Positions 1-20,337 of a stretch of 24,000 bases of DNA are shown here, piece by piece (the first letter of the stretch is position 1; the number at the start of each line of letters is the position of its first letter). The notes under the pieces are model-generated. The model was not told where the DNA came from. It ran no database searches and saw only the letters and a list, made by a program, of their open reading frames with translations. This stretch comes from Rhizobacter sp. (GTDB taxonomy: Bacteria; Pseudomonadota; Gammaproteobacteria; Burkholderiales; Burkholderiaceae_C). Made by a program: the position numbers and the translations under genes. The stretch covers positions 1 to 24,000 of the forward strand of contig JANYJL010000137.1 of the NCBI GenBank assembly GCA_025361845.1, written 5' to 3'.

Positions 1-89
1 CACTGCGACGGGTACTGGTCCTTGGCGTCGAAGACCATGCGCACCGCACGATCCTGAACCTCGGGGGAAAACTTCGGGGACTTCCTCAT
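1..89 (-). CDS. IS3-family transposase OrfA, N-terminal 29 codons only (partial; continues past the window edge)
   Basis: Translation is MRKSPKFSPEVQDRAVRMVFDAKDQYPSQ(W). The FSPE..RAVRMV....Y.SQW pattern is typical of the IS3-family OrfA helix-turn-helix region (compare IS6110 ...PELRERAVRMV...SEWAAI, from memory). A GGAG Shine-Dalgarno sequence lies 5 nt upstream. Confidence 0.8.
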   Translation of the reverse strand, partial: MRKSPKFSPEVQDRAVRMVFDAKDQYPSQ

Positions 90-90
90 C

Positions 91-1146
91 TTGGCTCCAT
101 TCTCAATCGAAGGAGCCTCCTCTAAACCCGGGGCGGTTCAAATCGACCTCACCGTCGACCTTGTCAGTCCAGCAAACTGGCGTCCAGTGCTGCCCCAGTT
201 CGAACGCGCTCTCGGGTTTCTCAGCGGCGATATCTGGAAGATATCGGTTCGCGATGATGGAGTCGCCGTTCCCCCTGGGCGAAGCGAACTGGCATTGGAC
301 GACTGTGTCTGCTTGCTGTCGGGCGGCTTAGACAGCCTCGTTGGAGCCATCGATCTTGTTCGCGGCGGAAAGCGCCCGATTCTGGTCAGCCACGCGTACC
401 CAAAGGAAGGCACGCTGCAGGCGTATTTCGCACAGCGAATCGACCCGACTCTGACTCACTTTTACGCGAATGCAGACGCGGGATTCAATAGCAAGAACGA
501 GATTTCGATGCGCTGCCGCTCGCTCTTGTTCGTTGCGATGGGGGTGCTGGCGGCTTCTGCGATTGCGAACGGCGATGAAGTCACTCAGTTGAACGTCCCC
601 GAAAACGGGTTGATCTCTCTCAATCCTCCTTTGAGCGTCCGTCGCATCGGCAGCCTGAGCACAAGGACGACGCACCCATATTTCCTGCGTCTCGTCTCCG
701 AGGTGCTGCATGGTGCCGGCGTGCCCGTGCAGATCGTGAATCCGTATGTGTTTCATACGAAGGGCGAGATGATCGAGCAGTGCAGAGATCTCGGCCTTCT
801 CAGATCGCTGATGGGTCATTCGATCTCCTGTGGCAAATGGAAGCGAAAGAATCGACCATGCGGGCGATGCTTCCCGTGCTTGATTCGTCGTGCCGCATTG
901 CATGCCGCAGGTGAAGAGGATTCACCAACCCGTCCGTACGTTTACGAGAACCTCAACGACGCCATCGACTACGAGGATGTGGTGGCAGTTCGCGCCGCAG
1001 TGGACCGCTACGAAGGGCAGGACATGGGCAAGGTGCTGCGGTCTATCTCACCACTTCCTCGGTCGTCGCGCGATCGACAAGCGCTGGTAGGTGTGGCCGA
1101 TCGAGGGATAGAGGAACTGAGACACTATCTCGACCACGCGCTGTGA
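91..1146 (+). CDS. qatC: QueC-like PP-loop ATPase (QatC-like), probably 5'-truncated. The first 17 codons (91-140) are IS-derived, so the ORF is chimeric; native sequence starts at 141.
   Basis: The PP-loop motif SGGLDS is at aa 77-82 (nt 319-336). A QueC-type Zn cysteine cluster C-x9-C-x2-C-x2-C is at aa 247-263 (nt 829-879, SCGKWKRKNRPCGRCFPCLIRRA). The stop overlaps the start of a TatD-like gene by 4 nt. There is no in-frame ATG between 141 and about 505; the only alternative start is a GTG at 187. GC is lower than in the core. Confidence 0.75.
   Translation: MAPFSIEGASSKPGAVQIDLTVDLVSPANWRPVLPQFERALGFLSGDIWKISVRDDGVAVPPGRSELALDDCVCLLSGGLDSLVGAIDLVRGGKRPILVSHAYPKEGTLQAYFAQRIDPTLTHFYANADAGFNSKNEISMRCRSLLFVAMGVLAASAIANGDEVTQLNVPENGLISLNPPLSVRRIGSLSTRTTHPYFLRLVSEVLHGAGVPVQIVNPYVFHTKGEMIEQCRDLGLLRSLMGHSISCGKWKRKNRPCGRCFPCLIRRAALHAAGEEDSPTRPYVYENLNDAIDYEDVVAVRAAVDRYEGQDMGKVLRSISPLPRSSRDRQALVGVADRGIEELRHYLDHAL
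113..140 (-). repeat. Terminal inverted repeat (IRL) of the IS3-family element
   Basis: This 28-nt terminus begins with TG and ends ...GGAGGCTC. It has the same length and the same conserved ends as the IS6110 IR as I remember it. The partner IR is outside the window, so the pairing cannot be verified here. Confidence 0.65.
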
Positions 1147-1883
1147 AGTGGGTTGACTTCCATTGTCATGTTGACCTGTACGACGATCCTCGGTCCATCT
1201 TGGCGTCGTGCGCACAGTCTGGCGTTGCTGTGTTCGCGGTGTCCACGATTCCGGCTGCCGCAGACCGCTTGAAGTCGCTCGTAAGTGCATCGGGTGCAGT
1301 AGTTCACATTGGCGTCGGCCTTCATCCGGAGGTTGCGCATAAACATCAGAAGTCTCTGGAACTTCTTCTCAACGAAGTCCGTGCCTATCGATTCGTTGGA
1401 GAAGTTGGGCTCGATGGTTCTCCGCAGTACCGTGAATATCAAGCTACCCAACGTCGCGTTCTCGAAGGCGTGTTCTCCGCCTGCGAAAAAGAAGGCGGCA
1501 AGATCTTGAGCCTTCATAGTCGCCGCGCAGTCCGACCTGTGCTCGACATGCTTGCCCAGCATCCTGACGCCGGCATCCCAGTTTTGCACTGGTTCTCCGG
1601 ATCACCGCATGAACTTGCCGAGGCATCGATGTCCGGATGTTGGTTTTCGGTAGGCCTTGGAATGCTGCAGACTGCTACAGGTCGAGAAGTCGTCGCATCA
1701 ATGCCTAGAAATCGTGTGCTCACGGAAACCGATGGCCCCTTCGCGCAGGCCGGCGGAAAGTCACTTACTCCCCTAGATATTGAGCGGTCCGTTGGAGCAT
1801 TGGCGAAAGTGTGGAACGTCCCGCCAGAATTAGCCCGCGAAATGGTCTGGAGCAACTACGAGGCTCTGATCGCCAAGTCCTGA
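1143..1883 (+). CDS. qatD: TatD-family metal-dependent nuclease/hydrolase (QatD-like), apparently intact
   Basis: The GTG start overlaps the qatC stop (GTGA at 1143-1146). All TatD metal-site motifs are present: FHCHVD (aa 6-11), GEVGLD, LSLHSR, LHWFSG and LTETDGP. It pairs with a QueC-like gene as in Qat operons. Confidence 0.8.
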   Translation: MKWVDFHCHVDLYDDPRSILASCAQSGVAVFAVSTIPAAADRLKSLVSASGAVVHIGVGLHPEVAHKHQKSLELLLNEVRAYRFVGEVGLDGSPQYREYQATQRRVLEGVFSACEKEGGKILSLHSRRAVRPVLDMLAQHPDAGIPVLHWFSGSPHELAEASMSGCWFSVGLGMLQTATGREVVASMPRNRVLTETDGPFAQAGGKSLTPLDIERSVGALAKVWNVPPELAREMVWSNYEALIAKS

Positions 1884-2052
1884 CAATGCACCTCTGGTCG
1901 CCCCATCCGTCTGAGCAATGAGGGTCCTGCCGCTGACCTGGAGGCAACGGTTGTGAAGCGTGTCGCGGCGACACATTGCTCAAGCGTGCCTCGCCCCGCT
2001 GGCGTCTCACAGAGTGAGTGAAACATCGAGGTCGATCTTGCGGCCCGGCAGG

Positions 2053-2166
2053 TCAGTTTGATAGTTTTCGTGCCAAGCCGTCGCAAGACTTCGCGCTGCC
2101 GACGATCTGCATCAGGTACTTCGCTCGTGACGTCCCGACGTAGATGGTCTCGGCCTCCTCGGCGTC
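2053..2166 (-). pseudogene. Remnant (last ~37 codons) of an SF1 UvrD/Rep-like helicase gene, cut off by the IS256 fragment
   Basis: The minus-strand tail reads ...DAEEAETIYVGTSRAKYLMQIVGSAKSCDGLARKLSN*. The segment EE....YVG.(T/S)RAK..L.I resembles SF1 helicase motif VI (E. coli UvrD EERRLAYVGVTRA, from memory). Upstream of about 2166 the sequence becomes IS256 transposase coding on the other strand. This is a very short match. Confidence 0.3.
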
Positions 2167-2700
2167 ACCGACGGCTTGAAGGGCATGCCCGAGTCGCTGG
2201 GCGCGGTGTACCCGGCCACGACGCTGCAGACCTGCATCGTGCACCTGATCAGGAACAGCCTGGACTACGCGAGCTGGAAGGATCGCAAGCTGCTGGCCCA
2301 AGCGATCAAGCCGATCTACACGGCCACCAGCGCCGAGGCGGCGCAGGCCGAACTCGACGCGTTCGAGCAAGGCCCGTGGGGTCGCAAATTCCCCACCGTC
2401 GTGGCCGCCTGGCGTCGGGCCTGGGACCGGGTGATTCCGTTCTTCGCGTTCCCGCTGGCGGTGCGTCGGGTGATCTACACGACCAACGCGATCGAGAGCA
2501 TCAACGCGCAGCTGCGCAAGATCATCAAGTCGCGCGGGCACTTCCCGAGCGACGACGCGGCCAGCAAATTGATCTGGCTGGCGCTGCGCAACATCACGGC
2601 CGACTGGGGCCGCGCAGCGCACAACTGGAAGGAGGCGATGAACCAGTTCGCGATACTCTACGAGGAGCGCTTCACTCGAGCCGCTGGCCCCCTGGGTTGA
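2131..2700 (+). pseudogene. IS256-family (Mutator-type) transposase, C-terminal half only
   Basis: The frame is open from 2131 and the recognisable homology starts at about 2167. The translation TDGLKGMPESLGAVYPATTLQTCIVHLIRNSLDYASWKDRK...IYTTNAIESINAQLRKIIKSRGHFPSDDAASKLIWLALRNI carries the DGLKG, C.VH..RN and YTTN.IES.N..LRK signatures of IS256 transposases. These signatures normally begin around residue 190 of a 400-plus-aa protein, so the N-terminal half is missing. Confidence 0.85.
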
Positions 2701-2823
2701 ACCATGCGATACATGGCTCAACCAGGGGCGCCTCCGGCGGCCTGGCAGGGGCCTCTGTTCAAAGAAGATCAAGCAAAGACGAATTCAACAACCCGCCTCG
2801 AACACAGAAATTCGGACACTCCC
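2167..2823 (+). mobile_element. IS256-family element remnant (3' half with right terminus; 5' half deleted)
   Basis: The region holds the transposase 3' fragment, a 123-bp tail, and a terminus ACACAGAAATTCGGACACTCCC ending at 2823. That terminus has the same ACACA-N6-CGGAC-N6 layout as the IS256 end as I recall it (ACACAATTATACGGACTTTATC). Confidence 0.7.
2796..2823 (+). repeat. Putative right inverted repeat of the IS256-family remnant
   Basis: The sequence is CCTCGAACACAGAAATTCGGACACTCCC. It is assigned by position after the transposase stop and by similarity of layout to IS256 termini. No left IR is present in the window to pair with it. Confidence 0.45.
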
Positions 2824-3000
2824 GCGTTGGACGATGCACAATCACGCACGGTTCTAGAATTCTTCTATCAAGCGGTTAGTAGGGGAACAGGCAGGGGAAC
2901 AACATCGTATTCCTGCGAAGGTTCTCCAATGAAATCAAGAACTTAGGTCCTGCGTTCGTTCTCCATCAGCCACCCCAAGAACACCGCTCGATGGTCAAGA

Positions 3001-3029
3001 CGCCCAGGCAACCCGTGGGCGCTTTTGTT
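3001..3029 (+). terminator. Rho-independent terminator-like hairpin oriented on the + strand, with no intact + strand gene upstream
   Basis: CGCCCA (3001-3006) pairs with TGGGCG (3016-3021), with two possible extra inner G-C pairs, and is followed by CTTTTGTTG. On the minus strand the downstream tract is only TCTT, so it is a poor terminator for the 3051..3335 gene. Confidence 0.4.
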
Positions 3030-3050
3030 GGTGGCTCGTTCGCATGATCA

Positions 3051-3335
3051 TCACGCGTTGAGCACCTGGAGCACGGCGGTTGTCGTGTTGATGGCGTGCT
3101 GGGCCACATCGCCCGGTCGGGTCGCCAGCACCTCCAGCGGGTACGTGCCCGAGACGATGTCGCCGTAGGCGAGTTCGGCCGCCTTGACCTCTTCGCCCAT
3201 GCCCTCGATGGCGGCGGCCAGGCAGTGAATGATCGAGCCCAGGCCGTCGTCGCTGTAGAGCTCCTCGCCCTCGGCGCTGACCGCGTAGTGAAAGCGGGCC
3301 GGGCCCGAAGGGTGGATCGAGATGCGAGCGATCAT
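3051..3335 (-). CDS. Hypothetical 94-aa protein downstream of the AtzE-like amidase
   Basis: The translation MIARISIHPSGPARFHYAVSAEGEELYSDDGLG... has its ATG at the complement of 3333-3335, preceded by GGAG-N7. The 226-aa version in the ORF track runs back through the amidase 3' end and is rejected. I recognise no family. Confidence 0.55.
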   Translation of the reverse strand: MIARISIHPSGPARFHYAVSAEGEELYSDDGLGSIIHCLAAAIEGMGEEVKAAELAYGDIVSGTYPLEVLATRPGDVAQHAINTTTAVLQVLNA

Positions 3336-3391
3336 GGCGGGGCTCCGTAGACGAAGTCCCGATTCTGAACGGCTCGCGCGAGGCGCTGAAC

Positions 3392-4798
3392 TCAGTTCAG
3401 CGCAGCGATCGGCGCACTGCTCACACCACGTGCTTCGAGTGCGGCGGCCACGCGCAAGGCCAGGTCTTCGCGCCAGGGCGCGGCGATCACCTGCACGCCG
3501 ATCGGCAGGTGCGGGCTTTGCGGGTTCATGCCCCACACCGGTACCGTCACGACGGGCAGGCCGATGCACGAGATCGGCTGCGCCAGCAAGCCCAGGCTCG
3601 GCCGTGCCGGCAGGCGCTTGCCACCCAGTTCCATCCACTCGGTGCCGATGCGTGGCGCCACGCAGGGCGTGGCCGGAGCGATCAGCACATCGACGGTTTC
3701 GAACGCGCGGGCCACACGATGCGCGAACCACTGCCGCACACGCTGCGCCTGCATCACCCAGGCCGCGGGCAGCAAGGCACCGGCCAGAAAGCGATCGCGC
3801 GAGAGCGGTTCGAAGTCTTGCGCGCGGCTGCGCAGATCGTTCAGGTGCAAAGCCGCGCCCTCGGCATTGCTGATGAGGAAAGCCGCAGCGCGCGCGCGCT
3901 CGACTTCAGGCCACTCGATCAGGCGCGTGGTGCCGAGCGCCTCCGCGGCGGCGTCGACGGCAGCCAGCGCCTCGGTCATCGCCATCTCGCGGAACCAGCC
4001 ACCGAGCACGCCGATGCGCAGGTTGTCGACACTGCCGGCCATCTGCGGCCGCACCGGTTCGGGCGCACGCCGCGCACAGGCCGGGTCGGCGGTCGAGGGG
4101 CCTTGCATCGCGTCATAGGCGAGCACCAGGTCGTCGACCGTGCGCGCGAATGGGCCGAGGTGGTCCAGGCTTGCGACGAAGGGATAACTGCCCACACGCG
4201 GCAGGCGGCCGAAGGTGGGCTTCAGGCCATAGATGCCGCACAGCGACGAGGGCACGCGGATCGAGCCATTCGTGTCCGACCCGAGCGTGAGGGGCACCTG
4301 GCCCGCCGCCACCGCCGCGGCCGAGCCGCCCGACGAGCCGCCGGACACATGCGCCAGATCGTGCGGGTTGCATGTCGGGCCGTAGTGGGTGTTTTCGGTC
4401 GTGAAGCCGTAGGCGTACTCGTCCATGTTGTTGGCGCCGATCAGGATGGCGCCAGCCGCTTCGAGCCGCCGCACCAGCAGCGCGTCGCGTGCCGCGGGTG
4501 TGGCCTCGCGTTCGATCTTCGAGCCGGCCAGCGTGGGCAGGCCGGCGATGTCGAACAGGTTCTTCACCGCGAAGGGCACGCCGGCCAGTGACAGCTCGCT
4601 GCGCCGGGTGTGCTTGTCGATCTGCCCGGCGCGTTTGAGGGCGCGTTCGGCCAGCAGCGAGGTGAAGGCGTTGACGCGGCCATCGGTCGCTTCGATGCGG
4701 TTCAGGCACTGCTCGACGGCGGTGCGTGCCGAGAGCGACCCATCGCGCACCTGCCGCGCGATCGTCGCCGCATCGAGTTGCCAGGCGGCGCCGTTCAC
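3392..4798 (-). CDS. Amidase-signature enzyme, AtzE-family amidohydrolase-like (468 aa)
   Basis: The amidase signature GGSSGGSAAAVAAG...GSDTNGSIRVPS is present with a GatA-like overall layout. The GTG start overlaps the stop of a DUF4089/AtzG-like small gene (GTGA), which is the AtzG-AtzE arrangement. Confidence 0.9.
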   Translation of the reverse strand: MNGAAWQLDAATIARQVRDGSLSARTAVEQCLNRIEATDGRVNAFTSLLAERALKRAGQIDKHTRRSELSLAGVPFAVKNLFDIAGLPTLAGSKIEREATPAARDALLVRRLEAAGAILIGANNMDEYAYGFTTENTHYGPTCNPHDLAHVSGGSSGGSAAAVAAGQVPLTLGSDTNGSIRVPSSLCGIYGLKPTFGRLPRVGSYPFVASLDHLGPFARTVDDLVLAYDAMQGPSTADPACARRAPEPVRPQMAGSVDNLRIGVLGGWFREMAMTEALAAVDAAAEALGTTRLIEWPEVERARAAAFLISNAEGAALHLNDLRSRAQDFEPLSRDRFLAGALLPAAWVMQAQRVRQWFAHRVARAFETVDVLIAPATPCVAPRIGTEWMELGGKRLPARPSLGLLAQPISCIGLPVVTVPVWGMNPQSPHLPIGVQVIAAPWREDLALRVAAALEARGVSSAPIAALN

Positions 4799-9437: not shown

Positions 9438-10187
9438 ATGCGTATTCTCATTGCGAACGACGACGGTTACCTCGCCCCTGGACTGGCGGCCCTGGTGAAG
9501 GCCTGCGAAGGGCTCGGCGAGCTCGACGTGGTCGCACCGGAGCAGAACGCCAGCGGCACCTCGAACTCACTCACCTTGCACCGGCCGCTGTCGGTCTACA
9601 CGGCCGCGAATGGCTTTCGCTACATCGGCGGCACGCCTTCGGATTGTGTTCACGTCGCGCTCACCGGCCTGTTGCCGCAGCGCCCCGACCTGGTTATCTC
9701 CGGCATCAACAACGGCGCCAACATGGGCGACGACACGCTCTATTCGGGCACCGTCGCCGCGGCGATGGAAGGCTTTCTGTTTGGCATCCCATCGATCGCG
9801 TTTTCGCAAGGAGAACGCGGCTGGACGCACCTCGATGCCGCCGCCCGCACCGCGCGCAGCGTGATCGAACAGGTGCTGCGCACGCCCCCCGGCCCCGCGC
9901 ACTGGCTGCTGAACGTGAACATCCCGAACCGGCCTGATGCCGATCAACTGCCGCGTGTCATCACCCACCTCGGCCGCCGCCACGCGAGCGAACCGGTGAT
10001 CCGCCAGACCAGCCCGCGCGGCGAAACGCTTTACTGGATCGGACCGGCCGGTGATGCGCGCGAGGCCGGTGCCGGCACCGACTTTCATGCGGTCGCGAAC
10101 GGGCAGGTGTCCATCACGCCGCTGCAAGTGGACCTGACCGATCACGCGCGGCTGCCGGCTTGGCGCGCCTGGGCGGGCAAGGAATGA
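9438..10187 (+). CDS. surE: 5'/3'-nucleotidase SurE
   Basis: [16 protein letters not shown]...[25 protein letters not shown] is the canonical SurE N-terminus, and the gene heads the surE-pcm-nlpD-rpoS cluster. The 33-codon upstream extension in the track is rejected. Confidence 0.95.
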
Positions 10188-11074
10188 GTGGTTCGGCGCC
10201 GCGTGCGCCGAAATTTCCGCTGCGCCTGGACCAGATGACGGCACCGGCCAGGTTGCCTGCGGCAGCGCCGCGCAAGCCGATCGCCAAGACGGTGGTCAAG
10301 CCCGCGTTGGCACGGACCCTCGTTGCGAACCAGCGCCCGGTGTTGCGACCGCAAGCCCATGTTCAGCATGCGCACACCGAAGCCACGCGGCGGGTGGCGC
10401 CCTCCGGCCTCGGCCTCGATTCGGCGGATGTGCGCCAGCGCATGGTGCGCCGCCTGCACGTGGCCGGCCTGCATGCCGACGCGGTGCTCGATGCAATGGC
10501 ACGGGTGCCGCGCCATCTGTTCATCGACCCGGCCCTCGTGACGCAGGCTTACGAAGACACCAGCCTGCCGATCGGCCACGGCCAGACCATCTCGAAGCCG
10601 AGTGTCGTGGCGCGCATGATCGAGCTGCTCCTGCAAGGCTCGAACGCACGCGCCAAGGGCTCGCTCGGCCGCGTGCTCGAGGTCGGCACCGGCTGTGGTT
10701 ACCAGGCCGCGGTGCTGTCGCTGATGGCCCGCCAGGTGATCTCGGTCGAACGCGTGCGACCGCTGCATGACAAGGCCCGCAGCATGCTCGATCGCCTGCA
10801 CGTGGGCCCGGTGCGGCTGGTGTATGGTGATGGCATGCTGGGGCACGCACCGAACGCGCCCTACGACAGCATCATCGCCGCCGCCGGGGGCGATGCCTTG
10901 CCTCAAGCCTGGCTCGACCAGCTCGCGCTCGGCGGGCGGCTCGTGTCGCCGATGCGGCAACCCGGCAGCGCCCAGCAGGTGCTGGTCGTGGTCGATCGAA
11001 CCGAACGCGGTTGCGTGCACTCGGTTCACGAATCGGTGAGTTTCGTCCCTCTAAAATCGGGGCTCGTTGGATAA
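10184..11074 (+). CDS. pcm: Protein-L-isoaspartate O-methyltransferase with a basic N-terminal extension of about 85 aa
   Basis: The translation includes ...[38 protein letters not shown]...[15 protein letters not shown]...DSIIAAAG. The ATG at 10184 overlaps the surE stop (ATGA). Confidence 0.88.
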
Positions 11075-11077
11075 CGG

Positions 11078-12052
11078 ATGCAGTGCATGGCGATTGACGC
11101 AAAACGGTGGTTCAAGAGCGCGTTCTGGATGAGCGGCGCTGTGGCATTGCTGCTGCTGAGTGCGTGTTCGACCGGCTTCAACCGCGCACCGGTCGAAGAC
11201 CGCATGGCAGGCACACGCAGCAGTTCGCCCGCACCACTGGCCGCCACGCCGCCCCCGCCCGGGCTCGGTACCGCCACCCCGGCCGATCTGACCAAGCCGC
11301 TGCCCGGCATCGAGAACCTCGGCAAGCCCGGCTACTACGCCGTGAAGCCGGGCGACACGCTGATCCGCATCGGCTTGGAGAGCGGCCAGAACTGGAAAGA
11401 CCTGGTCAAGTGGAACAACCTCGAGAACCCCAACATCATCGAGGTGGGCCAGGTGGTGCGTGTGGTTGCGCCCGGCGCCGATGCCACGGCCACGGCCACG
11501 CGGCCGATCACCAGTGCCAAGGCCGAGACCCGCCCGCTGGATGCCAAGCCGCCCACGGCCTCGGCCAGCTCGGCGTCGATGCCCGCGACCAGCGTGGCCG
11601 CAGCGACTGCGCCCACACCGGCCTCCGCGCCGGTCGCGCCGACGGCGGCCGTGCCACCGCCGCCGGTCGTGCGCGAGGGTGACGAAGACATCAACTGGTC
11701 CTGGCCCGCGGCCGGCACCGTGTTCGCCGGCTTCGAAGAAGGCAAGGCCAAGGGCCTGGTCATCTCCGGCAAGGCGGGCGACCCGGTGTTCGCGGCGGCC
11801 GATGGGCGTGTCGTGTACGCCGGCTCCGGCCTGCGCGGCTACGGCAACCTCGTCATCCTGAAGCACAACAACACCTACCTCACGGCCTACGCCCACAACC
11901 AGACGTTGCTGGTCAAGGAAGACCAGGCCGTGCGGCGCGGGCAGAAGATTGCCGAGATGGGTTCCAGCGACGCCGAGCGCGTGCAGTTGCACTTCGAGAT
12001 CCGCAAGCAGGGCAAGCCGATCGATCCGGCCCGCCTCTTGCCGCCGCGTTAG
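11078..12052 (+). CDS. nlpD: NlpD-like lipoprotein: LysM domain + M23 peptidase domain
   Basis: A lipobox LLLSAC is followed by a LysM domain ([30 protein letters not shown]), an Ala/Pro-rich linker and an M23 domain ([20 protein letters not shown]...LHFEIR). The position between pcm and rpoS fits. The ATG could be 11078 or 11087. Confidence 0.9.
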
Positions 12053-12071
12053 CGAACGACAGGGCCGCAGC

Positions 12072-13145
12072 ATGACCAAGAAGCGAACAACGCTCGATGG
12101 GCATGCGCCTGACGCGCCGGCGGTGGCATTCGATGCGCGCTTTCCGCCGGCACCGGTCGTCGCGTTGACGAGCCCGCTCAACGGCGCTCGTGCTGGTGAC
12201 GAACCCGCCGATGAGCCGGCCGACGAGGCCGACAACGCGCCCATCGACCCGCGCGCCGCCACCGAACTGGCGGCCGGCGACCCCGAGGTCGGCAACACCT
12301 TGCAGACCTATCTGCGCGAAATCCGTCGTGCGCCGCTGCTCACGGCCCAGGAAGAATTCGACACCGCCACCCGCGCCCGCAATGGCGACTTCGCGGCGCG
12401 CCAGATGATGATCGAGCACAACCTGCGCCTGGTCGTCAGCATCGCGAAGAACTACCTGGGTCGCGGCATGCCGATGACCGACCTGATCGAAGAAGGCAAC
12501 CTCGGCCTGATGCATTCGATCGGCAAGTTCGAACCCGAGCGCGGCTTTCGTTTCTCGACTTACGCGTCGTGGTGGATCCGCCAGAACATCGAGCGATCGA
12601 TCATGCACCAGGCCCGTCTGGTGCGGTTGCCGGTGCACATCGTGCGTGAGCTGAACCAGGTCCTGAAGGCGCGCCGTGCGCTCGAAGCGACCTCGGCCAG
12701 CAACGGCCATGCAGACCGACCGGTGCGTGTGGAAGATGTCGCTGCCGCCGTCGGCCGGCCCGTGCAGGAGGTGAGCGACCTGCTGAAGTTCGCCGAACAA
12801 CCGACCTCGCTCGACGCGCCACTGGACCGCAACCCGGCCGATGCGGGATCGGAATCGATGCTCGACAGCGTGGCCGACGACGGCTCGACCGACCCGATGA
12901 GCCTGGCACTGACGAACGAGGTCGAGCTGCTGCTCAACCACGGCCTGGACGAACTGAACGACCGCGAGCGCGAGGTGCTGGCGGGCCGCTACGGCCTGCG
13001 CGACCGCGAACCCGAAACGCTGGAGGTGCTGGCTGAGCGCCTGGGCCTCACGCGTGAACGCATCCGGCAGATCCAGCAAGAGGCGCTGCTGAAACTCAAG
13101 CGCCGCATGATTCGCCATGGTGTCGATCGCGATTCGATCTTCTGA
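12072..13145 (+). CDS. rpoS: RNA polymerase sigma factor RpoS (sigma-70 family group 2), 357 aa
   Basis: The translation [75 protein letters not shown] plus the region 4 sequence [19 protein letters not shown] fits RpoS, as does the synteny after nlpD. The start is the ATG at 12072; the 41-codon upstream extension in the track overlaps nlpD and is rejected. Confidence 0.9.
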
Positions 13146-17407: not shown

Positions 17408-18019
17408 GTGGGCGGTCGATTCATCACGTTCGAAGGCATCGACGGCGCCGGCAAATCCACGCACATCGAGGCCCTGGCCCAGCACCTGCGGCAACGCGGC
17501 GAGCGCGTCGTGTGCACGCGCGAGCCCGGTGGCACGCCACTCGCCGAACGTCTGCGCGAATTGGTGCTGCACGCGCCGATGGACCCGCTCACCGAAGCCC
17601 TGCTCGTGTTCGCGGCGCGGCGCGACCACCTTCAGCACCAGATCGAACCCGCCCTGGCGCGTGGCGACACGGTGCTGTGCGATCGCTTCACCGACGCGAC
17701 CTTCGCCTACCAGGGCGGTGGGCGCGGCTTCGACCTCGCGGTGCTCGCGCAGCTCGAACGCTGGGTGCAGGGCGAGCGCCAGCCCGATCTGAGCTTGTGG
17801 TTCGATATCGACCCCGACATCGCCGCGCAGCGCCGCGCCGCCGCTCGCCCGGCAGACCGCTTCGAGCAACAGGACAGCGCGTTCTTCGCGCGGGTGCGCG
17901 CTGGCTACGCCCTGCGCCAGCAGGCCGCGCCGCGGCGTGTGGTTCGCATCGACGCCAGCGGCGAGCGTGATGAAGTCTGGCGCCGCATTCTCGACGTGAT
18001 GGACGCCCGCGCGTGGTGA
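17408..18019 (+). CDS. tmk: Thymidylate kinase
   Basis: The GTG start gives [23 protein letters not shown]...[13 protein letters not shown]... with the P-loop and a typical length of about 203 aa. The long upstream extension in the track overlaps mltG and is rejected. Confidence 0.9.
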
Positions 18020-19101
18020 GCGACGATCCCGGGTTGCCGCTGCCCTGGCTCGCCGAGCCGTTGCGCCAGGCGCTGCAAACCCGCCGCGCGCACGCCTTGC
18101 TGCTCTACGGGCCGAAGGGTGTGGGGCAGTTCGAGCTGGCCACGGCCCTGGCACAAGCCTGGTTGTGCGAGCTGAACGGTCCGAACGCATCCGCGGCCCA
18201 ACCCTACGCCTGCGGCCACTGTGCGAGTTGCCGGCTCGTGCTGGCCCGCTCGCACCCGGACCTGCTGGTGCTGCTGCCCGAGGCCCTGCGCGAATCACTC
18301 GGCTGGGCCGGGGGTGAGGGCGAGGAGGGCGCGAGCGACAAGGCATCGAAGGCCAAACCCAGCAAGGACATCAAGGTCGAAGCGGTGCGCGCGGCCGTGA
18401 GTTTTGCCCAGACGACATCCGCGCGCGGGCGCGGCAAGGTGGTGGTGGTGCACCCGGCCGAGCGCATGAACGCGATCGCCGCCAACACCTTGCTCAAGAC
18501 CTTGGAAGAACCCCCCGGCGATTCACGCTTCGTGCTGAGCTGCGCCGCACCCGAGGTCTTGCTGCCGACCATCCGCAGCCGCTGCCAGGCCTTGCCGCTC
18601 GGCTTGCCGCCCACAGCAGAGGCTTCCGCCTGGCTCGCTGCACGCTCGATCGTTCGGCCCGAAGTGCTGCTCGCTGCGGCCGGCGGCCAGCCGTTGGAAG
18701 CATTGGAGTGGGCGGCCGATGGCATCGATGCCACGCTCTGGCTGCGCGTGCCGGGCTGGGTCGCGAATGGCGAGGCCGCGCCATTCGCCGCATGGCCGCT
18801 GCCGCGCCTCGTCGATGCCTTGCAGAAGCTTTGCCACGATGCGCTGTGCCGCGTCGCGGGTGCGGCGCCGCGCTACTTTCCAGAGTCCGCACTGCCCGCC
18901 AAGGGCGGCAGCTTCGCTTCGCTGACCAGTTGGTCGCAGGCCCTGGCACGCAATGCCCGCCATGCCGAACACCCGTGGAATGCGCCGCTCACGGTCGAGG
19001 CCCTGGTCCAGCAAGGCCGCGCTGCGCTGCAAGACAACGTCAAGGACCGCACAGTCGCGGGCGTGGTGAAGCAAGGCCTTTCGGTACACTTCCGCGCATG
19101 A
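18013..19101 (+). CDS. holB: DNA polymerase III subunit delta prime
   Basis: The translation includes [27 protein letters not shown]...[18 protein letters not shown]...[12 protein letters not shown]...TIRSRCQ. The start overlaps the tmk stop. Confidence 0.85.
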
Positions 19102-19493
19102 GCGAACCCAGCGGCCGCGGCAATCTCACCCTCACGCCAGGGCCAGTGGCAGCGTCACGCCCGAGCGTGATCCAGCTCGTGTTCCGCGAGAAGGGCGCGC
19201 TCTACGCCGCCTACATGCCGGTGTTCTCCGATGGCGGACTGTTCGTCCCAACGACTCGCGAATACAAGCTCGGCGAAGACATCTACCTGTTGCTGTCGCT
19301 GCCCGACGATCCGCAGCGCTACCCGGTGGCCGGCAAGGTCGGCTGGGTCACGCCGGCGAATGCCTCGGGTGGCCGCACGCAAGGCGTCGGCGTGCGCTTC
19401 CCCACCGACGACAAGACCCGCGTGCTCAAGCTCAAGATCGAGGAAATCCTCGGCACCTCGATCTCGTCAGCCAAGCCGACCCAGACGATCTGA
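19098..19493 (+). CDS. pilZ: PilZ-domain protein of the type IV pilus assembly PilZ (PA2960-like) type
   Basis: The ATG overlaps the holB stop (ATGA). The translation SVIQLVFREKGALYAAYMPVFSDGGLFVPT...GKVGWVTPANA...GVGVRF fits. The holB-pilZ-ycfH order is as in Pseudomonas. I found no N-terminal RxxxR motif. Confidence 0.8.
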   Translation: MSEPSGRGNLTLTPGPVAASRPSVIQLVFREKGALYAAYMPVFSDGGLFVPTTREYKLGEDIYLLLSLPDDPQRYPVAGKVGWVTPANASGGRTQGVGVRFPTDDKTRVLKLKIEEILGTSISSAKPTQTI

Positions 19494-19533
19494 GGGCGCC
19501 GCTGCGCGCTCGTTTCAACAGCGATCCTCCCGC

Positions 19534-20337
19534 GTGTTCGTCGATTCCCATTGCCATCTGGCCTTCCCCGAGCTGAGTGCGCGCATCGACGAGATCCGCG
19601 CGGCGATGGCCGCCGCCCAGGTCGACCGCGCCCTGTGCATCTGCACCACGCTCGAAGAGTTCGAATCGGTCCACGCCCTTGCGACGCGCTTCGACAACTT
19701 CTGGGCGACCGCCGGCGTGCACCCCGACAACGAAGGTGTGCGCGAGCCCTCGCTCGACGATCTGCTGGCCCTGGCGGCCTTGCCCCGTGTGCTGGCCATT
19801 GGCGAAACCGGCCTCGACTATTACCGCCTGAACGGCCGCAGCGTGGCCGACATGGCATGGCAGCGCGAGCGCTTTCGCGTGCACATCCGCGCCGCCCTCG
19901 CGACGGCGTTGCCGCTCGTGGTGCACACCCGCAGCGCCTCGGCCGACACGCTGGCGATCCTGAAGGACGAGGGCGCAGAAGCGCCCGGCGGCGTCTTTCA
20001 CTGCTTCACCGAAACCGATGCGGTGGCGCGTGCCGCGCTCGACCTCGGCTTCTACATTTCCTTCTCCGGCATCCTGACCTTCAAGACCGCGGCCGACCTG
20101 CGCGAGGTGGCGCGTTTTGTGCCGCTCGACCGCTGCCTGATCGAGACCGACAGCCCGTATCTCGCTCCGGTGCCCTACCGCGGCAAGGTCAATTCACCAG
20201 CCTACGTGCCCTTCGTCGCGCGCCAGATCGCCGAGCTGAAAGGCCTGTCGGTCGAAACCGTGGCACAGGCCACAACGGCGAACTTCGAGCGCCTGTTCAA
20301 GCCGGTGGCTGCGCAGTCGGTCACGAACGGCAGCTGA
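19534..20337 (+). CDS. ycfH: TatD-family hydrolase, housekeeping YcfH-type
   Basis: The GTG start gives MFVDSHCHLAF...AGVHP...AIGETGLDYYR...LVVHTRSA...GVFHCFTE...ETDSPYLAPVPYRGK.NSPAYV. It follows holB-pilZ as ycfH does in other proteobacteria. Confidence 0.9.
   Translation: MFVDSHCHLAFPELSARIDEIRAAMAAAQVDRALCICTTLEEFESVHALATRFDNFWATAGVHPDNEGVREPSLDDLLALAALPRVLAIGETGLDYYRLNGRSVADMAWQRERFRVHIRAALATALPLVVHTRSASADTLAILKDEGAEAPGGVFHCFTETDAVARAALDLGFYISFSGILTFKTAADLREVARFVPLDRCLIETDSPYLAPVPYRGKVNSPAYVPFVARQIAELKGLSVETVAQATTANFERLFKPVAAQSVTNGS

What the first reader, a model, noticed from the sequence alone, without database searches (positions are those of the whole stretch)
91..1883. Orphan QueC-like + TatD-like gene pair: the 3' half of a Qat-type anti-phage operon, with qatA and qatB not visible
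Seen in the sequence: a protein with a PP-loop (SGGLDS) and a QueC-style four-Cys zinc cluster is translationally coupled (GTGA overlap at 1143-1146) to a TatD-fold protein that retains every metal-site motif (HCH, GEVGLD, HSR, HWFSG, ETDGP). The pair sits in lower-GC DNA and is bracketed by IS fragments. Established knowledge: QueC-like plus TatD-like is the QatC-QatD signature of the QatABCD defence system (Gao et al. 2020). Its mechanism is still poorly defined. From memory only, QueC-family enzymes in type IV CBASS were recently reported to attach a 7-deazaguanine moiety to a protein, which would make QatC chemistry interesting. Inference: either this is a recently IS-disrupted Qat operon, or, if nothing Qat-like lies upstream, it is a two-gene QueC/TatD variant that has not been described. 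There are no internal stops or frameshifts in either gene, which argues for recent disruption rather than long decay.
Basis: partly seen in the sequence, partly recalled or inferred. Interest (0 to 1): 0.7.

Follow-up and report, generated by a model that had tools for sequence, protein, structure and literature searches.

The report
IS-split QatABCD phage-defence operon
The two genes are the back half of an ordinary four-gene QatABCD anti-phage operon that a 1.46-kb insertion sequence has cut in two inside qatC, so it is a freshly broken copy of a known system, not a new two-gene variant.

Summary
Window 142-1146 encodes codons 87-420 of a QatC, and 1143-1883 encodes a complete QatD.

The ORF called at 91 is a fusion. 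Its first 16-17 codons come from the terminal inverted repeat of an IS3-family element, which ends at base 140 and runs off the left edge of the window.

The closest relatives are 91.7% identical in DNA without gaps, and they carry an intact qatA-qatB-qatC-qatD operon.

The three sequencing runs that hold the window's qatC'-qatD contig also hold contigs with qatA, qatB and qatC codons 1-86. Those contigs end in the other inverted repeat of the same IS. The same 3-bp duplication (AAT) flanks both junctions.

So this is a simple IS insertion. Nothing was deleted, and qatA and qatB lie about 1.5 kb to the left.

Substitutions relative to the intact copies are mostly synonymous, which points to a recent insertion. 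Published work shows that QatB-QatC is the minimal defence unit and that the QatC N-terminal extension is indispensable. QatBC-dependent defence is therefore most likely off here.

The two-gene-variant reading is rejected. Interest is low. The main value is as a warning that apparent "qatCD-only" loci in draft assemblies can be IS or assembly artefacts.

The parts
1..140 (-). Left end of an IS3-family insertion sequence (about 1458 bp in full). The terminal inverted repeat TGAACCGCCCCGGGTTTAGAGGAGGCTCC occupies 140->111. orfA starts at the ATG at 89 and reads leftward off the window (MRKSPKFSPEVQDRAVRMVFDAKDQYPSQ...).
   Evidence: Translation. It is 95.7% identical over 1-141 to an annotated IS3-family element on Variovorax sp. 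WDL1 plasmid 4. That copy spans L032 483-1940 and ends in the same ...GGGGCGGTTCA.
141..143 (.). Right-hand copy of the 3-bp target-site duplication AAT.
   Evidence: The left-side contigs L026-L028 end ...GACGCGGCGAAT|TGAACCGCACC. The window reads ...GGTTCA|AATCGACCTCACC. The uninterrupted relative reads GACGCGGCGGATCGACCTCACC.
91..1146 (+). Chimeric ORF as found mechanically (351 aa). Codons 1-16 are IS inverted-repeat sequence, codon 17 straddles the junction, and codons 18-351 are QatC. NCBI's annotation of the source record starts it at the GTG at 187 (319 aa, P0248).
   Evidence: The profile matches begin at residue 17.
142..1146 (+). qatC codons 87-420 plus the stop codon. This is the last part of the N-terminal extension, the whole QueC-like PP-loop core (SGGLDS, STRTTHP, four-Cys Zn site) and the C-terminal extension.
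   Evidence: PADLOC QatC 2.5e-87 over profile positions 90-446 of 453. NCBIfam QatC 293.7 bits, above the cut-off of 280. 97% amino-acid identity to the full-length 420-aa P0001. 91.7% nucleotide identity without gaps to L021 10259-11979.
1143..1883 (+). qatD, a complete TatD-family nuclease gene (246 aa). Its GTG start overlaps the qatC stop (GTGA).
   Evidence: PADLOC QatD 1.4e-76. NCBIfam QatD 275.6 bits, above the cut-off of 230. Pfam TatD_DNase 2.4e-43. The HxH, GEVGLD, HSR, HWFSG and ETDGP motifs are present.
1862..1864 (.). Right-hand breakpoint of similarity to the related qat loci. The last few qatD codons differ: ...YEALIAKS* here, against ...YE(A/T)LVG* in the relatives.
   Evidence: In L029-L031 a 1339-aa nSTAND3 gene overlaps the qatD stop. 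It is absent here.
1865..2158 (.). About 290 bases of unassigned sequence between qatD and the IS256 remnant.
   Evidence: No match in plasmids with blastn. No match in any fetched locus except the identical contigs L015-L017.
2159..2700 (+). 5'-truncated IS256-family (Mutator-type) transposase remnant. Only the C-terminal 40% or so is left.
   Evidence: 82-84% nucleotide identity to annotated IS256-family transposases. Pfam Transposase_mut 8e-42, profile positions 235-378 of 379. Stop codons lie upstream in frame.

Best explanation
The window holds the 3' part of a canonical four-gene qatABCD anti-phage operon, in the chromosome of an uncultured Burkholderiales bacterium. The operon has been split by a simple insertion of a ~1.46-kb IS3-family element into codon 86/87 of qatC.

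The arrangement in the genome is qatA - qatB - qatC(1-86) - [IS, transposase genes antisense, AAT duplication] - qatC(87-420) - qatD. The window begins inside the IS, so only the right-hand piece is visible.

How the intact system works, from the literature (not tested here): QatC is a QueC-family PP-loop ATPase. It binds QatB 1:1 and is thought to modify QatB's flexible N-terminal glycine tail, by analogy with Cap9 deazaguanylation in type IV CBASS. QatBC is the minimal defence unit. QatD is a TatD-type 3'-5' exonuclease / AP endonuclease that docks through QatB. QatA is a KAP NTPase that broadens the range of phages covered.

Inference for this locus: the insertion removes more than half of the QatC N-terminal extension, which is strictly required for defence. 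It also separates qatC'-qatD from the operon promoter by an antisense IS. QatBC-dependent defence is therefore most likely switched off, and qatA, qatB and qatD are intact bystanders. The insertion is evolutionarily recent.
For: Family assignment:
- The Qat-specific profiles are passed, and the housekeeping QueC and TatD profiles are failed.

Position of the break:
- Gap-free 91.7% nucleotide identity to L021-L023 begins at window 142, immediately after the IS terminus at 140. That point is 258 nt (86 codons) into their 420-codon qatC.
- The 86-aa fragment on the left contigs matches QatC profile positions 19-90, and the window piece matches 90-446. The two dovetail.

Relatives are complete operons:
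- The closest relatives carry a 595-aa KAP NTPase QatA, a 260-276-aa QatB, a 420-aa QatC and a 243-244-aa QatD in one operon.
- More distant relatives (L001, L005) have the same four genes.

The other half is in the same samples:
- The window's qatC'-qatD contig occurs at 100% identity in SRR20627842, SRR23617167 and SRR22198311.
- Exactly those three runs hold contigs L026-L028 with qatA-qatB-qatC(1-86), ending ...GCGAAT + TGAACCGCACCGGGTTTCGAGGAGGCCTGT.
- That 30-mer matches 29/30 the far end of the Variovorax IS3-family copy. The near end of that copy matches window 1-141 at 95.7%. The element is 1458 bp long.
- AAT flanks both junctions, and the two flanks rejoin into the uninterrupted qatC sequence.

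Recency:
- dN/dS against L021 is 0.05 for qatC and 0.12 for qatD.
- Changes on the window branch are 33 synonymous / 4 non-synonymous in qatC and 46 / 21 in qatD.

Functional consequence:
- PMC13279940: QatBC is minimally required, and deletion of the QatC N- or C-terminal extension abolishes defence.
- The PDB QatC 9zee aligns so that the break falls near residue 92, inside the N-terminal extension that precedes the QueC core starting at residue 145.
- No sigma-70-like promoter is found in 1-3100. This is weak evidence.
Against: - The physical link between the two halves is inferred. It rests on short metagenome contigs from the same samples, matching IS ends and a matching duplication. No single sequence spans the IS.
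- No expression or phage data exist. One paper (PMC13434339) reports that QatD expressed alone gives about 10-fold protection against lambda and P1, so 'off' may not apply to QatD.
- qatD's 3' end is itself at a rearrangement breakpoint, which the IS3 insertion does not explain.
- The promoter scan is a crude consensus search and is not tuned to this organism.
Confidence: 0.92

Rival explanations
1. This is an autonomous, previously undescribed two-gene QueC-like/TatD-like defence module that works without QatA and QatB.
For: Both reading frames are open, and they are translationally coupled. A survey lists rare natural 'qatCD' and 'qatD-only' arrangements (PMC13434339).
Against: - The QatC piece begins exactly at an IS terminus and lacks 86 codons that all five members of its 90%-identity cluster possess.
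- Its 'start' is IS sequence.
- qatA, qatB and the missing 5' end exist in the same samples, abutting the other IS end.
- QatC needs QatB and its own N-terminal extension for defence (PMC13279940).
Confidence: 0.02
2. These are housekeeping genes: QueC for preQ0/queuosine synthesis, plus a generic TatD.
For: Pfam sees only QueC (3.1e-10, C-terminal part only) and TatD_DNase.
Against: - TIGR00364 QueC scores 29.5 bits against a cut-off of 150.3. The TatD equivalog and subfamily models all fall far below their cut-offs. The QatC and QatD equivalogs are passed.
- None of the window genes that were given a family is queD, queE or folE.
- The genome's housekeeping TatD/YcfH-type gene is elsewhere in the window, downstream of tmk-holB at about 19.5-20.3 kb.
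- The pair lies in low-GC DNA between IS elements.
Confidence: 0.01
3. The two operon halves are no longer adjacent. Recombination between two copies of the IS (an inversion or translocation) moved qatC'-qatD away from qatA-qatB-qatC'.
For: - The IS is multicopy in these genomes, since assemblies break at it.
- The region has suffered other rearrangements: the qatD 3' breakpoint and the truncated IS256.
- No read spans the element.
Against: The same 3-bp AAT duplication sits at both junctions, and the flanks rejoin perfectly in frame. After recombination between two different IS copies, the flanking triplets would match by chance only about 1 time in 64.
Confidence: 0.05

Closest known systems
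QatABCD anti-phage system (Gao et al. 2020; QatBC structures from P. aeruginosa and E. coli, PDB 9zee/9zef and 9vlk/9vll; A. baumannii QatD)
   Same: - Same four protein families in the same order, with overlapping or coupled genes.
- QatC has the PP-loop SGGxDS, the STRTTHP loop, the four-Cys Zn site and both family-specific extensions (in the reassembled gene).
- QatB has an N-terminal Gly-rich tail (MGTSRSHPGAGGG).
- QatD has the HxH type II TatD site.
- QatA is a KAP NTPase.
   Different: - This copy is interrupted by an IS3-family element after codon 86 of qatC.
- The last few qatD codons differ from those of its close relatives.
- The proteins are diverged from the studied ones. For P0001, the 97%-identical full-length relative, phmmer gives 189 bits to PDB QatC over residues 41-357.
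- The host is an uncultured Burkholderiales bacterium.
Type IV CBASS Cap9 (QueC-family deazaguanylase acting on the CD-NTase N-terminus)
   Same: It shares the QueC-family Rossmann/PP-loop core and Zn site. It is the proposed analogy for N-terminal modification of a partner protein (PMC13279940, PMC13639016).
   Different: - No CD-NTase or effector neighbours are present.
[quoted passage not shown]
- The best PADLOC model is QatC, not a CBASS component.
Housekeeping QueC (7-cyano-7-deazaguanine synthase) and TatD/YcfH
   Same: They share the fold families: PF06508 (C-terminal part) and PF01026.
   Different: - Both proteins fail the curated equivalog cut-offs.
- None of the window genes that were given a family is a queuosine-pathway gene.
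- A separate housekeeping TatD lies at about 19.5-20.3 kb, next to holB.
Published 'incomplete' Qat configurations (qatCD, qatD-only, qatBCD; PMC13434339)
   Same: Seen in a single contig, this locus would be scored as a qatCD-only form.
   Different: Here the incompleteness is demonstrably an IS insertion combined with an assembly break. It is not a reduced module.

Membership tests
QatABCD defence system | QatC: a QueC-family protein that passes the Qat-specific profile | tested here: met
   NCBIfam NF041925 gives 293.7 bits against a cut-off of 280, even though the protein is truncated. PADLOC QatC gives 2.5e-87.
QatABCD defence system | QatC catalytic and structural motifs: PP-loop SGGxDS, STRTTHP loop, four-Cys Zn site | tested here: met
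   SGGLDS, SLSTRTTHPYF and SCGKW..PCGRCFPC are present in the window ORF. They align to PDB QatC 9zee.
QatABCD defence system | Complete QatC N-terminal extension, which is required for defence (PMC13279940) | tested here: not met
   The window gene lacks codons 1-86. The match starts at profile position 90 of 453 (PADLOC) and 42 of 398 (NCBIfam). The missing piece lies on the other side of the IS. The gene is therefore a member by descent but is disrupted.
QatABCD defence system | QatD: a TatD-family nuclease with the HxH site, encoded directly downstream of qatC | tested here: met
   NF041926 gives 275.6 bits against a cut-off of 230. PADLOC gives 1.4e-76. HCH is at residues 7-9, and the start overlaps the qatC stop as GTGA.
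QatABCD defence system | QatA (KAP NTPase) and QatB encoded upstream in the same operon | tested here: inconclusive
   - Neither is in the window.
- Both are found on contigs L026-L028 from the same three samples, ending in the matching IS terminus and AAT duplication.
- PADLOC gives QatA 3e-167 and QatB 7e-50.
- Adjacency is inferred and is not read through.
QatABCD defence system | QatB N-terminal flexible tail with a glycine motif | tested here: met
   The L026 QatB begins MGTSRSHPGAGGG. This is on the same-sample contig, not in the window.
QatABCD defence system | Protects against phage | not testable with these tools
   This needs cloning of the disrupted and repaired operons and a phage challenge.
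Housekeeping QueC (preQ0 synthesis) | Passes the TIGR00364 equivalog, with queD/queE/folE neighbours | tested here: not met
   The score is 29.5 bits against a cut-off of 150.3, and only the C-terminal 60 residues match. None of the window genes that were given a family is a que gene.
IS3-family insertion sequence (left flank) | TG...CA termini with imperfect inverted repeats, orfA close to the left repeat, and a 3-bp target duplication | tested here: met
   The left and right repeats are TGAACCGCCCCGGGTTTAGAGGAGGC and TGAACCGCACCGGGTTTCGAGGAGGC. The element is 95.7% identical to an annotated IS3-family element of 1458 bp. The duplication is AAT. Only 140 bp lie inside the window.

The most novel reading that the evidence does not exclude
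The IS-split locus is not simply dead. Two readings remain open:
- Intact qatD, possibly together with intact qatA and qatB on the other side, might still give a reduced, QatC-independent defence. One paper reports QatD acting as an autonomous unit.
- IS insertion into and excision from qatC might act as a population-level on/off switch for a costly or autoimmune defence system.
Probability: 0.07. Interest if true: 0.4.

Novelty: new member of a known kind. Interest (0 to 1): 0.15.

Why it matters
For biology it matters little. It is one more QatABCD operon, in an uncultured Burkholderiales bacterium, caught shortly after an insertion sequence knocked out its signature gene.

It has two modest uses:
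- It shows concretely that a "qatCD-only" locus in a draft assembly can be an artefact of an IS insertion plus a contig break. That bears on published counts of reduced Qat configurations. Gene callers also missed an intact qatD in three related contigs.
- It gives a natural pair of alleles: the disrupted one here and 92%-identical intact ones. These could be used to test what qatA, qatB and qatD do without QatC.

Tried and rejected
- The genome-contig scan with QatC found no source genome. The best hit was 46% identical. It did show the canonical four-gene operon in distant relatives.
- Looking up the NCBI-derived 319-aa product (P0248) to obtain the source contig's left flank failed, because it was not on record.
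- Two other QatA-bearing contigs came from unrelated samples, and their breakpoints did not fit (L024 and L025).
- I searched for a second copy of the IS3 inverted repeats in the window and found none.
- A 49-60-nt match at 2694-2754 to the region just beyond the transposase gene inside IS3-family elements is only a short hairpin-like element, not an IS fragment.
- The ~290 bases at 1865-2158 matched nothing in plasmids.
- No tRNA gene marks an integration site.
- The promoter scan found no sigma-70-like site in 1-3100. I treat this as weak evidence only.
- The Variovorax copy of the IS has no matching 3-bp flanks (GTT versus ACC), so it could not serve as independent confirmation of the duplication length.
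- Structure prediction was not run. The solved QatC structures and the profile matches already settle the fold question.
Full report
**1. What is in the sequence**

Two same-strand ORFs occupy 91-1146 (351 aa, TTG start) and 1143-1883 (246 aa, GTG start). They overlap in the sequence GTGA at 1143-1146.

The first carries CLLSGGLDSLVG (a PP-loop), SLSTRTTHPYF and SCGKWKRKNRPCGRCFPC (four cysteines). The second carries DFHCHVD, GEVGLDG, LHSRR, LHWFSG and TETDGP. Neither has an internal stop.

GC is 0.57-0.59 over the first 2 kb. It is 0.63-0.73 for nearly all of the remaining 21 kb.

**2. Family assignment**

| Protein | Model | Result |
|---|---|---|
| First | PADLOC QatC | 2.5e-87 |
| First | NCBIfam QatC equivalog | 293.7 bits (cut-off 280) |
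| First | Housekeeping QueC TIGR00364 | 29.5 bits (cut-off 150.3) |
| First | Pfam QueC | C-terminal third only |
| Second | PADLOC QatD | 1.4e-76 |
| Second | NCBIfam QatD equivalog | 275.6 bits (cut-off 230) |
| Second | All TatD/YcfH/YjjV-type models | Far below cut-off |

The window does contain the organism's housekeeping TatD. It lies downstream of mltG-tmk-holB at about 19.5-20.3 kb. It scores only 1e-21 on the QatD model.

**3. The left boundary**

The QatC profile matches start at residue 17 of the ORF. That is PADLOC model position 90 of 453 and NCBIfam position 42 of 398.

The minus strand of 1-89 encodes MRKSPKFSPEVQDRAVRMVFDAKDQYPSQ, the start of an IS3-type orfA. Bases 1-141 are 95.7% identical to the end of an annotated IS3-family element on Variovorax sp. 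WDL1 plasmid 4. That copy runs from TGAACCGCACCGGG... at L032 483 to ...GGGGCGGTTCA at L032 1940, which is 1458 bp.

In the window the element ends at base 140. So the ORF's first 16 codons are IS inverted-repeat sequence and codon 17 straddles the junction. The "gene" at 91 is a fusion. NCBI's own annotation of the source record starts it at the GTG at 187 (319 aa, P0248).

**4. What the intact locus looks like**

A protein search found a full-length 420-aa QatC that is 97% identical (P0001).

Its contigs (L021-L023) align to window 142-1862 at 91.7% identity without a single gap. The alignment starts 258 nt (86 codons) into their qatC. These contigs encode:
- a 595-aa KAP NTPase (QatA);
- a 260-276-aa QatB;
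- QatC;
- an intact 243-aa QatD, which the gene caller had missed.

A second set of close relatives (L029-L031) shows the same four genes. Relatives at 40-46% identity from Rhodospirillales and Bradyrhizobium do so as well.

A QueC/TatD pair without qatA and qatB is therefore not a feature of this lineage.

**5. Where qatA and qatB went**

The window's qatC'-qatD segment occurs at 100% identity on short contigs from three sequencing runs: SRR20627842, SRR23617167 and SRR22198311. Those contigs break at the IS on the left and in the IS256 remnant on the right.

One member of the 90% cluster of the relatives' QatA (P0243) is encoded in exactly those three runs. Its contigs (L026-L028) carry qatA, qatB and then 86 codons of qatC. 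They end in ...GACGCGGCGAAT followed by TGAACCGCACCGGGTTTCGAGGAGGCCTGT.

That 30-mer is 29/30 identical to the far terminus of the Variovorax IS copy. It is also an imperfect inverted repeat of window 140->111.

The window continues from the IS with AATCGACCTCACC. The uninterrupted relative reads GACGCGGCGGATCGACCTCACC. The two flanks therefore rejoin exactly, with AAT duplicated. A 3-bp target-site duplication is typical of IS3-family transposition (established knowledge).

At the profile level, the left fragment covers QatC positions 19-90 and the window piece covers 90-446.

I conclude that the genome reads qatA-qatB-qatC(1-86)-[IS3-family element, antisense]-qatC(87-420)-qatD, with nothing deleted.

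The adjacency is inferred rather than read through. The matching duplication makes separation by recombination between two IS copies unlikely: the flanking triplets would match by chance only about 1 time in 64.

**6. Age of the event**

Against L021, Nei-Gojobori dN/dS is 0.05 for the qatC part and 0.12 for qatD.

Changes unique to the window's branch are 33 synonymous and 4 non-synonymous in qatC, and 46 and 21 in qatD. This is still the signature of purifying selection.

No intact allele with this lineage's diagnostic residues is on record among the five members of the cluster. The insertion is recent on the scale of the roughly 8% divergence from the relatives. It is nevertheless the allele present in every sample that holds this lineage.

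**7. Mechanism and consequence**

The following comes from the literature and was not tested here.
- QatB and QatC form a 1:1 complex that is minimally required for defence, and sufficient against some phages.
- QatC's QueC core begins at about residue 145. It is preceded by an N-terminal beta/alpha extension whose deletion abolishes defence.
- QatB's N-terminal glycine tail is essential. It is proposed to be modified as in Cap9 deazaguanylation (PMC13279940; PMC13376578; PMC13639016).
- QatD is a TatD-type 3'-5' exonuclease / AP endonuclease inhibited by NTPs. It docks through QatB (PMC13434339; PMC13639016).

Alignment to PDB QatC 9zee places the break near residue 92, inside the N-terminal extension.

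Inference: the split QatC cannot fold or function, so QatBC-dependent immunity is off. qatA, qatB (MGTSRSHPGAGGG...) and qatD remain intact.

qatD is now separated from the operon promoter by an antisense IS, and no sigma-70-like promoter is seen in 1-3100. That is weak evidence. One paper reports about 10-fold protection from QatD alone, so residual QatD activity cannot be excluded.

**8. The right boundary**

Similarity to all the relatives ends at 1862-1864, 19-21 bases before the qatD stop. The C-terminus here reads ...YEALIAKS* instead of ...YE(A/T)LVG*.

In L029-L031 a 1339-aa nSTAND3 gene overlaps the qatD stop. It is absent here.

What follows in the window is:
- about 290 bases that match nothing;
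- a 5'-truncated IS256-family transposase at 2159-2700;
- from about 3 kb onward, high-GC chromosomal genes: an amidase, a two-component system, surE-pcm-nlpD-rpoS, and mltG-tmk-holB-tatD.

There is no tRNA gene.

The qat remnant is thus the edge of a low-GC island that has been reworked by IS elements. Upstream of qatA, the same-sample contig L026 carries AbiEii/DUF6088, an HTH-M78 peptidase pair, and PIN and TIR genes, which together look like a defence island.

**9. Host**

SurE is 84-86% identical to that of Piscinibacter, Methylibium and Caldimonas. The host is therefore an uncultured Burkholderiales bacterium of that group. It is not Variovorax, even though the IS is shared with Variovorax plasmids.

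**10. Verdict**

This is a new but disrupted member of a known and now well-studied system, so interest is low.

One point is worth keeping. A published survey counts rare "qatCD" and "qatD-only" configurations as natural modular forms (PMC13434339). This locus would be scored as such from its contig alone, yet it is an IS insertion plus an assembly break. In addition, an intact qatD went uncalled in three related contigs.

Noticed in passing
window 1862-2158: qatD sits on a second breakpoint. Similarity to all related qat loci ends 19-21 bases before its stop, so the last few codons differ. The ~290 bases that follow match nothing in plasmids or in the fetched loci. In relatives L029-L031 a 1339-aa nSTAND3 NTPase gene overlaps the qatD stop, which suggests a linked fifth gene that has been lost here.
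   Followed up: partly
window 2159-2700: A 5'-truncated IS256-family (Mutator-type) transposase remnant. It covers Pfam profile positions 235-378 of 379 and is 82-84% identical in DNA to the ISEc58-like and other IS256-family elements.
   Followed up: yes
window 2694-2754: A short hairpin-like element (GGGTTGAACCATG...CATGGCTCAACC...). It recurs at about 90% identity just beyond the transposase gene, inside IS3-family elements on Variovorax plasmids. Its role is unknown; it could be a terminator or a REP-like element.
   Followed up: partly
window 18013-20337: The housekeeping cluster mltG(yceG)-tmk-holB is followed by a TatD/YcfH-type hydrolase (Pfam TatD_DNase 4e-77). This paralogue also hits the PADLOC QatD model at 1e-21, so QatD calls need the Qat-specific cut-off or genomic context.
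   Followed up: yes
L021 11260-11991 (also L022 and L023): In three related Logan contigs the gene caller missed an intact 243-aa qatD. It called a 154-aa antisense ORF plus fragments instead. Automated counts of 'qatABC-only' loci could be inflated in this way.
   Followed up: yes
L026 1-8326 (same-sample contig upstream of qatA): Upstream of qatA lies what looks like a defence island. It has a TIR_2-domain protein, a PIN_12 protein, an AbiEii/DUF6088 pair (AbiE-type toxin-antitoxin) and an HTH + Peptidase_M78 pair.
   Followed up: no
window 3051-3731 (minus strand): A 226-aa ORF at the island/chromosome boundary has no Pfam or PADLOC match. Only its C-terminal ~95 residues look like a real small protein. 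The rest is probably an over-extended ORF in high-GC DNA.
   Followed up: partly
window 9441-13145: The conserved stationary-phase cluster surE-pcm-nlpD(LysM/M23)-rpoS is present. This confirms that the window is chromosomal. SurE places the host near Piscinibacter and Methylibium (84-86% identity).
   Followed up: yes
L032 480-482 and 1941-1943: The nearly identical IS3-family copy on Variovorax sp. WDL1 plasmid 4 has non-matching flanking triplets (GTT versus ACC). That copy has probably taken part in a rearrangement.
   Followed up: no
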